In this document: positions 32,687 to 34,388 of the stretch, piece by piece
Numbering within the stretch: position 1 is the stretch's first letter
How the letters are laid out: every line of letters begins with the position of its first letter
Origin: Candidatus Atabeyarchaeum deiterrae
GTDB taxonomy: Archaea; Asgardarchaeota; Atabeyarchaeia; Atabeyarchaeales; Atabeyarchaeaceae
Reading direction: 5' to 3'
Assembly: GCA_037310415.1 (NCBI GenBank)
Contig: CP147780.1
Location: forward strand, 288,001 to 352,000
DNA: 64,000 bases
Notes under the pieces: generated by a model
The model's database searches: none
Told to the model about the DNA's origin: nothing
What the model saw: the letters and a program-made list of their open reading frames with translations, nothing else
Translations under genes and position numbers: made by a program

Positions 32687-32799
32687 GGGCCTGTAGCTCA
32701 GCCAGGTAGAGAACCAAAAAAATGGAGAACCTGCTAAGTGCCTAAAGCGTCGGGCTCTTAACCCGATGGCCAGGGGTTCAACTCCCCCCAGGCCCGCCA
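32687..32799 (+). tRNA. tRNA-Lys(CTT) with a 36-nt intron at position 22/23 (about 32710-32745); CCA is encoded
   Basis: Acceptor stem GGGCCTG/CAGGCCC, D-stem GCTC/GAGC restored after intron removal, anticodon arm TCGGG-CTCTTAA-CCCGA, T-loop TTCAACT, 3' GCCA. Confidence 0.9.
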
Positions 32800-33282: not shown

Positions 33283-33482
33283 TACAGTAACACCCAAGAC
33301 AATACAAATGAGTGGCACTAGCTGGCAGTGGTCTATCTTTTTAATACCACCGGAGCCTCTTATTACTATATGCCCGTTTCCGATTGGGTTCCTCCACACC
33401 AACAGGCAGTTAAATAGAATCAGTAGATTGTAGAAGGTAGAGCAGGGTTCTTCCCACTTGATAGGTGGTGATTGGTGAAGGA

Positions 33483-34195
33483 ATGAAGGATCTAACTGAT
33501 GCTAAAGAGAAGCTCAAACAGCGTTTCATTGAAGAGGGTATTGTGAGCAGCTCAAGTGTCATTAATGCATTCATGAATGTCCCCCGGGAAGAATTCGTTC
33601 CCCCGAACATTAGGGAAGATGCGTACGACGACCGCCCGCTTCCAATAGCAGCTGGTCAAACAATAAGCGCACCACATTACTTGGTCTGTCCCAAGTAAGG
33701 TGAAACATGGTTGTCATAATGTGCGAGCAGCTGAGGCTGGAAGAAGGGAATAAGGTATTGGAGGTAGGGGCAGGCTCAGGTTACCATGCAGCTATTTGCG
33801 CGGAAATTGTTGCTCCACCTGCATCTAATAATCCTGGATACGTCTACTCGGTAGAGAGAATATCATCTTTGGCGAAATGGGCCAGGGAGAATCTGAAGAG
33901 AACTGGATACGCTAATCGTGTGAAGGTAATCGTTGGAGATGGGACAATGGGTTATCGAGAAGCCATGCCTTATGACAGGATACTTGTCACGGCTTCGGCG
34001 CCGAGAATACCCGAACCACTGGTAGAACAGCTGAGAGTAGGGGGCACAATGGCAATACCGATAGGGGAAAAGTATGGCTGGCAAGAGCTTGTTCTTGTCA
34101 AGAAAGTGAAAGAGGAAGAAGTTGTTACAACTAATTTTGGTGGAGTAGCTTTTGTGCCGCTAATCGGCGAGCATGGCTGGAATAACGAAGAATAA
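33483..34195 (+). CDS. pcm: Protein-L-isoaspartate O-methyltransferase; two exons, 33483-33675 and 33705-34195 (227 aa spliced)
   Basis: VPREEF, AYDDRPLPI and GQTISAPH in exon 1; MVVIM, VLEVGAGSGY, GDGTMG, PYDRI and FVPL in exon 2; joined in frame after removing 29 nt. Confidence 0.9.
33676..33704 (+). other. Candidate BHB-type mRNA intron (29 nt) in pcm
   Basis: CACC-ACA-TTACTTGG-(TCTGTC)-CCAAGTAA-GGTG-AAA: a 4-bp helix, two 3-nt bulges and an 8-bp stem; canonical cuts give CCA CAC ATG (P-H-M). Confidence 0.85.
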
Positions 34196-34388
34196 CACTT
34201 GTTCGTCCTTCTTGTTTCTTCCATCGCATTGTCGCCAGCAAGGTAAGTCTTCAAGAATCCTCGATGCAGATGTTTCTATTCTCACGGGTTGTTCAAAGTT
34301 TATATATAGGGGTAGAATCGAGAATAGAGAGTATCGTTGGAGTAGTTTGACTCAAGGCGGACGGTGAATTACAACGGCAGTAGAGATA

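What the first reader, a model, noticed from the sequence alone, without database searches (positions are those of the whole stretch)
33676..33704. 29-nt BHB intron splitting the SAPH-M motif of PIMT (pcm)
The 5' arm is CACC (33670-73), bulge ACA, then TTACTTGG. After the loop TCTGTC, the 3' arm is CCAAGTAA, GGTG (33699-702), then bulge AAA. Cutting after the second nucleotide of each bulge joins C33675 to A33705. This gives AGC GCA CCA CAC ATG GTT = S-A-P-H-M-V, the conserved GQTISAPHMV motif, and a 227-aa enzyme. Unspliced mRNA stops at TAA 33696-98 inside the stem. The intron's GGTGA also sits just before ATG 33707 like a Shine-Dalgarno site, so unspliced RNA might make a separate C-terminal fragment.
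Basis: partly seen in the sequence, partly recalled or inferred. Interest (0 to 1): 0.88.

Follow-up and report, generated by a model that had tools for sequence, protein, structure and literature searches.

The report
tRNA-type mini-intron splitting Asgard pcm
The only protein-repair methyltransferase gene (pcm) of this Asgard archaeon is interrupted by a 29-base insert shaped like a tRNA intron; dozens of related archaea keep such an insert at the same spot, so the enzyme can almost certainly be made only after the mRNA is cut and rejoined, which is documented in archaea for very few protein genes.

Summary
The insert folds as a 4-bp helix (CACC/GGTG) with 3-nt bulges ACA and AAA and an 8-bp inner stem. 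Cutting after the second bulge base restores ...GQTISAPHMV... and a 227-aa PIMT.

The genome is an Atabeyarchaeia (Asgard) chromosome. About 37 orthologues checked base by base carry an insert at the same codon. These inserts are 21-57 nt, fall in every length class modulo 3, and share the same geometry. Every one checked has an in-frame stop, and all splice to SAPHM. Stems covary: 95.6% of cells are paired, against 27-46% when the partners are slid.

A covariance model finds the insert in 18 of 151 sampled Asgard genomes and 34 of 151 Bathyarchaeia. The genome encodes a catalytic EndA, a His-less EndA paralogue and RtcB. I confirmed two more mRNA introns of this type in the same genome, in endoQ (in the window) and cbf5.

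No RNA data could be obtained, so splicing itself is inferred. In the papers I could search, only cbf5 and HVO_1309 are reported. This scan had already noted a pcm intron in a Jordarchaeum genome. Verdict: a real feature and a new member of a known kind.

The parts
33483..33675 (+). pcm exon 1. Starts at ATG 33483 (an alternative GTG start lies at 33465). Ends with the first base (C) of the His codon of SAPHM.
   Evidence: ORF list. Pfam PCMT profile positions 3-61. TIGR00080 positions 3-63. Aligns without gaps to Atabeyarchaeia-1, with changes concentrated at third codon positions.
33676..33704 (+). 29-nt BHB-type intron (equally 33677-33705). It carries the in-frame stop TAA 33696-33698. Phase 1, inside the His codon.
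   Evidence: Sequence, fold, splice product. Same-site inserts in relatives. Covariance-model hit of 76.4 bits at G000:321649-321727.
33670..33673 (+). 5' strand of the central 4-bp helix (CACC). It is exonic and made of Ala/Pro codon bases.
   Evidence: Pairs with 33699-33702. GCG/GGCG changes to GCA/GGTG as a compensatory pair in 3 of 19 sequences, from three different lineages.
33674..33676 (+). 5' three-base bulge ACA. The predicted cut lies between C33675 and A33676.
   Evidence: The rule that cleavage falls between the second and third bulge residues is stated for cbf5 in PMC2738675.
33677..33698 (+). Intronic hairpin (helix h'): 8-bp stem TTACTTGG/CCAAGTAA with loop TCTGTC.
   Evidence: Fold. 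All 8 pairs show changes on both sides across 19 orthologues.
33699..33702 (+). 3' strand of the central helix (GGTG), intronic.
33703..33705 (+). 3' three-base bulge AAA. The predicted cut lies between A33704 and A33705. The outer exon-exon helix is essentially absent (only G33669-C33706), so the motif is the relaxed HBh' form.
   Evidence: Sequence. The fold shows no adjacent outer helix. The last bulge base is A in every orthologue examined.
33705..34195 (+). pcm exon 2. Begins with AC, which completes the His codon, then ATG 33707. Stop codon at 34193-34195.
   Evidence: ORF list. Pfam PCMT 61-208 at 2.2e-44. TIGR00080 65-213.
50632..50672 (-). A second mRNA intron of the same type in the window: 41 nt in an EndoQ-type nuclease gene at GTGD|F. 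Exon 1 is 50673-50810 and exon 2 is 49402-50631. Context only, not part of pcm.
   Evidence: Sequence and fold. The 46-aa exon 1 matches P. furiosus EndoQ residues 3-42 and ends at GTGD. Exon 2 matches residues 67-385.

Best explanation
This is a genuine archaeal splicing-endonuclease (bulge-helix-bulge) intron inside the coding sequence of pcm. The pre-mRNA folds so that exon bases CACC pair with intron bases GGTG. This presents two 3-nt bulges on either side of a 4-bp helix, held in place by an 8-bp intronic hairpin. The heteromeric EndA endonuclease cuts between the second and third base of each bulge. RtcB then joins the 2',3'-cyclic phosphate and 5'-OH ends. That rebuilds the His codon (C + AC) of the invariant SAPHM motif and gives an mRNA for a 227-aa protein-L-isoaspartate methyltransferase. 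The 29-nt intron is released, probably as a circle. Unspliced RNA can only give a 77-aa fragment ending in the intron's TAA. Shown by computation: the split, the fold, exact frame and motif restoration, same-site conservation with covariation in two phyla, purifying selection on both exons, and the presence of the enzymes. Inferred: the cleavage, the ligation, the fate of the intron and the activity of the product.
For: Geometry and product.

Abutting family coordinates: Pfam 3-61 and 61-208; TIGR00080 3-63 and 65-213.

This is the only strong PCMT locus in the genome.

First set of 19 orthologues (Atabey-, Baldr-, Jord-/Frey-type Asgard and Bathyarchaeia): inserts of 25-35 nt in all three length classes modulo 3. 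Each has an in-frame stop, including the four whose length is a multiple of 3, and each is spliced by the same rule to SAPHM. Read unspliced, the residue after SAP is H, L, Q or R, and it is not His in 8 of 19.

Twenty more regions, 17 of them genes not in the first set, with introns of 21-57 nt, plus one Njordarchaeum-labelled contig, behave the same way.

Covariation: 95.6% of cells are paired against 27-46% when partners are slid by 1-3 columns. Nine of 12 pairs have changes on both sides, and 0 of 500 shuffles reach the observed score.

The covariance model separates intron-bearing genes (56-86 bits) from intron-less genes (33-36 bits). It scores 18 of 151 Asgard and 34 of 151 Bathyarchaeia genomes as intron-bearing.

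Both exons are under purifying selection against Atabeyarchaeia-1. Changes by codon position are 15/13/39 in exon 1 and 34/19/97 in exon 2.

Enzymes: one EndA is closest to crenarchaeal catalytic subunits (3p1z_B, 1.9e-46). A second EndA paralogue has Thr where the first has the His I take to be catalytic. RtcB scores 582 bits. Asgard archaea are reported to have (alpha-beta)2 EndA with the L1 loop that allows relaxed motifs (PMC5829648).

The insert is present without indels in DNA contigs of two studies, though one of those runs may be the source of this genome.

Same-type introns in endoQ and cbf5 of the same genome.
Against: There is no RNA evidence. No RNA run holding this stretch was offered. 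The outer exon-exon helix is missing (1-2 bp), so this is the relaxed HBh' motif and not the strict hBHBh' form. Cleavage therefore depends on a broad-specificity EndA whose activity is inferred only from homology. Translation coupled to transcription could unfold the hairpin before it is cut.
Confidence: 0.88

Rival explanations
1. A split gene with no splicing. The two ORFs are translated separately, the second from ATG 33707 using GGTGA as a ribosome-binding site, and the fragments assemble into an active enzyme.
For: An ATG follows the insert in every orthologue, and GGTGA lies just upstream here. Gene callers report the 161-162-aa exon-2 ORF as a stand-alone protein in all 21 full-length closest database relatives.
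Against: The ATG is the conserved Met of SAPHM and is also present in intron-less genes. GGYG is GGCG in most orthologues and lies only 3 nt from the ATG. This model gives no reason for several conserved features: the 4-bp helix, the two 3-nt bulges, the final bulge base A, and the covarying stem. It also does not explain why the invariant His appears only after splicing, since 8 of 19 unspliced readings lack it. The tails left on the N-terminal fragment are unrelated between lineages.
Confidence: 0.05
2. Translational recoding. Ribosomes bypass the 29 nt (a T4 gene 60-type hop) or shift frame, with the hairpin as the stimulatory structure.
For: A stop codon and a hairpin lie close behind the break, as in gene 60 bypassing (the gene 60 features are from general knowledge).
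Against: The only matched codon pair is CAT 33675-33677 and CAT 33706-33708. Landing there would resume in the wrong frame, at GGT TGT. Gap lengths range from 21 to 57 nt in all frame classes, and the in-frame ones still carry stops. What is conserved is BHB geometry, not take-off and landing codons.
Confidence: 0.02
3. A decaying pseudogene, or an assembly artefact.
For: The reading frame is broken in the DNA.
Against: DNA contigs of two studies bridge the insert without indels, although one run may be the source of this genome. Both exons evolve under purifying selection. The insert is kept at the same codon in 52 of 302 sampled genomes of two phyla. The genome has no other pcm.
Confidence: 0.02

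Closest known systems
cbf5 pre-mRNA intron of Crenarchaeota (Desulfurococcales and Sulfolobales; Watanabe 2002, Yoshinari 2006, Yokobori 2009 = PMC2738675)
   Same: A short intron (16-44 bp in cbf5) inside a conserved catalytic motif of a housekeeping gene. It is in phase 1, has a relaxed BHB motif, and the cut lies between the second and third bulge residues. It is attributed to heteromeric EndA, and its presence is lineage-specific.
   Different: A different gene (pcm) and different phyla (Asgard and Bathyarchaeia). Splicing of cbf5 was shown by cDNA and in vitro, whereas here it is only inferred. This genome also carries a cbf5 intron, in the same Asp codon.
Non-canonical BHB/HBh' introns of tRNA genes in Atabeyarchaeia and Freyarchaeia (PMC11291895; bioRxiv 10.64898/2026.10.13.758758)
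   Same: Same genome type, in which 92-95% of tRNA genes are reported to be interrupted. Same motif and presumably the same enzymes. The Asgard lineages that carry the pcm intron (Atabey-, Jord-/Frey- and Baldr-type, the last including DXJG01) are among those reported as rich or elevated in tRNA introns.
   Different: The host RNA is an mRNA. Excision must therefore be exact to the base to keep the frame, and it must compete with translation. Neither paper mentions introns in protein-coding genes.
HVO_1309 mRNA of Haloferax volcanii (cut by EndA; PMC7714728, as discussed in PMC10485636)
   Same: An archaeal mRNA processed at a BHB by the tRNA splicing endonuclease, with a spliced product seen in RNA-seq.
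   Different: It is a euryarchaeon with a homodimeric enzyme and a different gene. I did not check where that intron lies in its transcript.
HAC1/XBP1 unconventional splicing in eukaryotes (IRE1 plus RtcB or Trl1; general knowledge)
   Same: Spliceosome-independent removal of a short, frame-changing intron (26 nt in XBP1) from an mRNA. The sites are defined by RNA structure, and in animals the exons are joined by RtcB.
   Different: The nuclease is IRE1, not EndA. The sites are stem-loops, not a BHB. That splicing is a regulated stress switch, and no regulation is shown here.

Membership tests
Archaeal splicing-endonuclease (BHB) intron | A central 4-bp helix flanked by two 3-nt bulges on opposite strands | tested here: met
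   CACC/GGTG with bulges ACA and AAA. The same layout is present in every orthologue examined.
Archaeal splicing-endonuclease (BHB) intron | Both outer helices present (the strict hBHBh' form) | tested here: not met
   The intronic helix h' is 8 bp. The exon-exon helix h is only 1-2 bp (G33669-C33706). This is therefore the relaxed HBh' form, as in cbf5 and many non-canonical tRNA introns.
Archaeal splicing-endonuclease (BHB) intron | Cuts between the second and third bulge base give a functional, exactly joined product | tested here: met
   The frame and the SAPHM motif are restored here and in all of about 37 orthologues with introns of 21-57 nt.
Archaeal splicing-endonuclease (BHB) intron | The structure is conserved through compensatory changes | tested here: met
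   95.6% of cells are paired. Nine of 12 pairs have changes on both sides. Slid controls give 27-46% paired.
Archaeal splicing-endonuclease (BHB) intron | The host encodes a broad-specificity EndA and an RtcB ligase | tested here: met
   Two EndA homologues are present. One is like crenarchaeal catalytic alpha subunits. The other lacks the His I take to be catalytic. RtcB is also present. This rests on homology only; activity was not tested.
Archaeal splicing-endonuclease (BHB) intron | Spliced RNA, or the excised or circular intron, observed | not testable with these tools
   No RNA run holding the stretch was offered. The spliced 30-mer was not found in metagenome contigs.
Protein-L-isoaspartate O-methyltransferase (PF01135 / TIGR00080) | Full-length match to the family profile | tested here: met
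   The two exons together cover Pfam positions 3-208 of 210 and TIGR00080 positions 3-213 of 216. The two TIGR00080 scores simply added (46.9 + 150.9 bits, a rough sum) exceed the 159-bit cut-off, which neither exon reaches alone.
Translational bypassing (T4 gene 60 type) | Matched take-off and landing codons that resume the correct frame | tested here: not met
   The only matched pair (CAT/CAT) resumes out of frame. Gap length is not conserved.

The most novel reading that the evidence does not exclude
pcm is one visible member of a general mRNA-splicing regime in the intron-rich Asgard lineages and in Bathyarchaeia. In this reading, short BHB introns behave as heritable, perhaps mobile, elements that settle in the most conserved motifs of housekeeping genes. 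The same pcm site is occupied in two phyla. A tree that holds all intron-bearing pcm genes together is not rejected (p-AU 0.52). Either the interrupted gene, or the intron itself, has therefore moved between Asgard archaea and Bathyarchaeia, or it predates their split. Splicing could also act as a gate on enzyme production, as in HAC1/XBP1.
Probability: 0.3. Interest if true: 0.9.

Novelty: new member of a known kind. Interest (0 to 1): 0.72.

Why it matters
Protein-gene introns removed by the tRNA-splicing machinery are confirmed in archaea for cbf5 and one haloarchaeal mRNA only. A 2023 review expected that more remain to be found (PMC10485636). This adds a second widely conserved case, in the closest archaeal relatives of eukaryotes and in Bathyarchaeia, and it sits in a genome that holds at least three such genes.

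It offers a concrete, easily assayed substrate for asking how an mRNA is spliced where translation is thought to begin while transcription is still under way. It also bears on how such introns arise and spread.

There is a practical consequence. Public annotation splits or truncates these genes. All 21 full-length closest database relatives are called as 161-162-aa exon-2 ORFs, and one Jordarchaeales entry begins with mistranslated intron sequence. Metabolic reconstructions of these lineages may therefore miss or miscall such genes.

Tried and rejected
RNA evidence: no RNA holder was listed for 33300-34300.

The spliced-junction 30-mer was not found in metagenome contigs. The tool warns that records of this genome or close kin may be left out.

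The search of the 5.8-billion-protein collection with exon 2 found no near-identical protein of spliced length. The one 100%-identical hit (P0051, 142 aa) starts at the exon-2 Met and ends in a frameshifted tail. This gives no information on splicing.

The search for related loci with the single protein found nothing. The same search with an alignment worked.

A genome-wide scan of my own for BHB geometry plus ORF fusion was too unspecific. It gave 6107 loose candidates. Strict filters left 12, which include pcm and a 53-nt candidate at G000:919007-919059. It cannot serve as a census without homology checks.

Pfam gave no hit for either EndoQ exon. Matches to solved structures settled that case.

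A BHB-like hairpin from my scan at window 34341-34378 folds no better than shuffled sequence (z -0.25) and was dropped.

The pcm gene tree has an unresolved backbone. It needs at least 5 state changes as drawn, but a single clade is not rejected. One origin and several origins therefore remain equally open.

Full report
**1. The observation**

From 33670 it runs CACC, ACA, TTACTTGG, TCTGTC, CCAAGTAA, GGTG, AAA. The minimum-free-energy fold of 33655-33720 is that hairpin: the 4-bp helix stacked on the 8-bp stem, with a 3-nt bulge on the 5' side (-16.1 kcal/mol; z -2.46).

ORF 33465-33698 ends ...GQTISAPHYLVCPK at TAA 33696-33698. ORF 33707-34195 begins MVVIMCEQL. Pfam PCMT matches the first ORF at profile positions 3-61 and the second at 61-208. 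TIGR00080 matches 3-63 and 65-213, so only the His position that the insert splits is missing.

Deleting 33676-33704 gives an uninterrupted ...GQTISAPHMVVIMCEQL... protein. It is 227 aa from ATG 33483, or 233 aa from GTG 33465. Deleting 33677-33705 gives the same sequence.

**2. Whose genome this is**

The window is G000:C1:288001-352000 of a closed 2.757-Mb chromosome. Its nearest named relative, in the same family at 73% identity for exon 2, is the Atabeyarchaeia-1 chromosome CP147779.1. The window genome is therefore an Atabeyarchaeia (Asgard archaeon). DNA runs that hold the stretch come from wetland, freshwater-sediment and soil metagenomes.

The paper describing these genomes reports introns in 92-95% of their tRNA genes, many at non-canonical positions. 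It says nothing about protein genes.

The split locus is the only strong PCMT match in the genome. The other hits are partial matches of other methyltransferases.

**3. The insert is real DNA and the gene is alive**

DNA contigs from two studies bridge the insert with no indel (X1 and X5). X1 may be the source of this genome.

Against Atabeyarchaeia-1 the spliced protein aligns without gaps over 226 residues, of which 160 are identical. Nucleotide changes by codon position are 15/13/39 in exon 1 and 34/19/97 in exon 2, which is the pattern of purifying selection on both exons.

**4. Relatives**

Among 41 related genomes, tblastn with the spliced protein splits at the same residue in eight of them and is continuous in the rest.

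In 80 named loci the insert is present in the following:
- Atabeyarchaeia-1
- four Baldrarchaeota-type MAGs
- three Jordarchaeia
- a MAG labelled Thermoproteota that the genome collection places in an Asgard family
- six Bathyarchaeia

The first 19 genes were tabulated:
- Every one has a CRCC helix strand, a 3-nt bulge, a stem-loop, GGYG and a 3-nt bulge ending in A.
- Lengths are 25-35 nt, in all three classes modulo 3.
- All carry an in-frame stop, including the four whose length is a multiple of three.
- All give SAPHM when cut after the second base of each bulge.
- Read without splicing, the residue after SAP is H, L, Q or R, and it is not His in 8 of 19.

The invariant His therefore exists only in the spliced reading.

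Twenty more regions were fetched after the model search. Seventeen of them are genes not in the first set. Their introns are 21-57 nt and they follow the same rule. So does a contig whose protein is labelled Candidatus Njordarchaeum.

**5. Covariation**

I tested the structure on the anchored alignment A2:
- 95.6% of 228 cells are standard pairs, against 27.6-46.1% when the 3' partners are slid by 1-3 columns.
- All 8 stem pairs and 1 of the 4 central-helix pairs show changes on both sides.
- 0 of 500 shuffles reach the observed covariation score.

The central-helix change is instructive. The third base of the Ala codon (GCG or GCA) switches together with the intron base opposite it (GGCG or GGTG). 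This happens in 3 of the 19 sequences, from three different lineages: this window, Baldrarchaeum yapensis and one Bathyarchaeon.

**6. Distribution**

I built a covariance model from the alignment with flanks. It separates intron-bearing pcm genes (56-86 bits, 71-107 nt) from intron-less ones (33-36 bits, 50 nt).

In an even sample of 151 Asgard genomes it finds 18 intron-bearing genes:
- family f1: the window and Atabeyarchaeia-1
- f7: 5 of 5
- f8: 1 of 1
- f14: 3 of 4
- f18: 6 of 6
- one copy in an f3 genome, which looks Bathyarchaeia-like and may be mis-binned

Both genomes of these families that gave no model match, one in f1 and one in f14, also gave no pcm match in the protein search. 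No hit came from the large Loki-, Thor-, Heimdall-type families sampled.

In 151 Bathyarchaeia the model finds 34.

The Asgard lineages that have the intron are among those a 2026 preprint reports as carrying heavy or elevated tRNA-intron loads: Atabeyarchaeia, Jordiarchaeia and DXJG01.

**7. One origin or several**

The tree of exon-2 proteins puts intron-bearing genes in at least five well-supported lineage clades on an unresolved backbone. A tree that holds all of them together is not rejected and is marginally better (p-AU 0.52). The data therefore cannot separate one ancient or transferred interrupted gene from repeated insertion at the same site.

**8. The machinery**

- The genome has two EndA homologues.
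- The 238-aa one is closest to the catalytic subunits of the crenarchaeal heterotetramers (3p1z_B at 1.9e-46, then 3ajv_B, 2cv8, 2zyz_B).
- The 198-aa one is more divergent. It also matches structural subunits (2zyz_A, 3iey_B). It has Thr where the first has the His I take to be catalytic (GIDHAPF against GKDTSKY).
- RtcB is present at 582 bits.
- The published view is that Asgard archaea have an (alpha-beta)2 EndA with the L1 loop, the type linked to relaxed motifs (PMC5829648; PMC4090602).

That matters here. The exon-exon outer helix is only 1-2 bp, so the motif is HBh' and not the strict BHB.

**9. Other interrupted protein genes in this genome**

Earlier first-stage notes of this scan pointed to further interrupted protein genes in the same genome. 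I checked two.

endoQ, in the window on the minus strand, has a 41-nt insert at 50632-50672 with helix GGGG/CTCC and bulges ATA and AAT. The upstream 46-aa exon matches P. furiosus EndoQ residues 3-42 and ends at GTGD. The downstream exon matches residues 67-385.

cbf5, near G000:395,660-395,700, has an insert with helix CTCT/AGAG. It splits the Asp codon of GTLDPRVTG between its first and second base. That is the position described for crenarchaeal cbf5.

A tRNA-Lys(CUU) gene 0.9 kb upstream of pcm also contains an intervening sequence.

**10. Rival explanations**

- Separate translation of two fragments does not explain the conserved bulge-helix-bulge geometry, the conserved final A of the 3' bulge, or the fact that His appears only after splicing.
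- Bypassing fails because the only matched codons resume out of frame and the gap length varies.
- A pseudogene or an artefact is excluded by sections 3 to 6.

**11. What is known**

In the library I could search, archaeal mRNA splicing by EndA is reported for cbf5 and for HVO_1309 of Haloferax. A review expects more cases. No paper combines BHB with isoaspartate. Neither paper on Atabeyarchaeia introns mentions protein genes.

Within this scan, a pcm intron was already noted and followed up in a Jordarchaeum genome (e1-5424973). One note reports an RNA-derived contig that lacks a 29-nt mRNA intron in Jordarchaeum (e1-5425387). I did not test the latter.

**12. What is missing**

Direct RNA evidence is missing. 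No RNA run was offered. The spliced junction was not found in metagenome contigs. No near-identical protein of spliced length is in the protein collection. None of these blanks bears on whether splicing occurs.

**Verdict**

This is a new member of a known kind of intron: a new gene, in new phyla, and widely conserved. Confidence that it is a spliced BHB intron is 0.88. Interest is 0.72.

Noticed in passing
window 50632-50672 (minus strand); exons 50673-50810 and 49402-50631: An EndoQ-type nuclease gene is split at GTGD|F by a 41-nt BHB-type insert (helix GGGG/CTCC, bulges ATA and AAT). The 46-aa upstream exon matches P. furiosus EndoQ residues 3-42, and the downstream exon matches residues 67-385.
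   Followed up: partly
window 32687-32798 (plus strand): A tRNA-Lys(CUU) gene that ARAGORN misses and Rfam matches only at model positions 10-63. The acceptor halves GGGCCTG and CAGGCCC lie about 100 nt apart. Two D-arm-like segments are separated by about 36 nt, which suggests a non-canonical intron in or near the D arm.
   Followed up: partly
own genome G000:C1, about 395,660-395,700 (locus L122), outside the window: cbf5 is interrupted by an insert of about 41 nt (helix CTCT/AGAG, outer helix GGGA/TCCC). It lies between the first and second base of the catalytic Asp codon, the same position as the crenarchaeal cbf5 intron.
   Followed up: partly
L137 (G015:C126:5165-5364): An Asgard-binned genome holds a second, intron-bearing pcm copy whose protein and intron look like the Bathyarchaeia type. 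It also has an intron-less copy on another contig. This could be mis-binning or gene transfer.
   Followed up: no
L053 / G139 (= G403): The MAG labelled 'Thermoproteota archaeon S9B3_HD70' is placed by the genome collection in the same Asgard family (f7) as the Jordarchaeales genomes. Its pcm and intron are of the Jord type, so the public label looks wrong.
   Followed up: partly
proteins P0001-P0022 and P0109: Public gene calls for intron-bearing pcm genes are exon-2-only ORFs of 161-162 aa, or start with mistranslated exon 1 and intron sequence (P0109, 190 aa). The annotation of this gene is systematically truncated in these lineages.
   Followed up: partly
own genome G000:C1:919007-919059 (minus strand), outside the window: My strict BHB-plus-ORF scan flagged a 53-nt candidate intron that would join open frames of 132 and 273 codons. 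An earlier scan note describes a 53-nt intron in a housekeeping gene in that region. I did not check it by homology.
   Followed up: no
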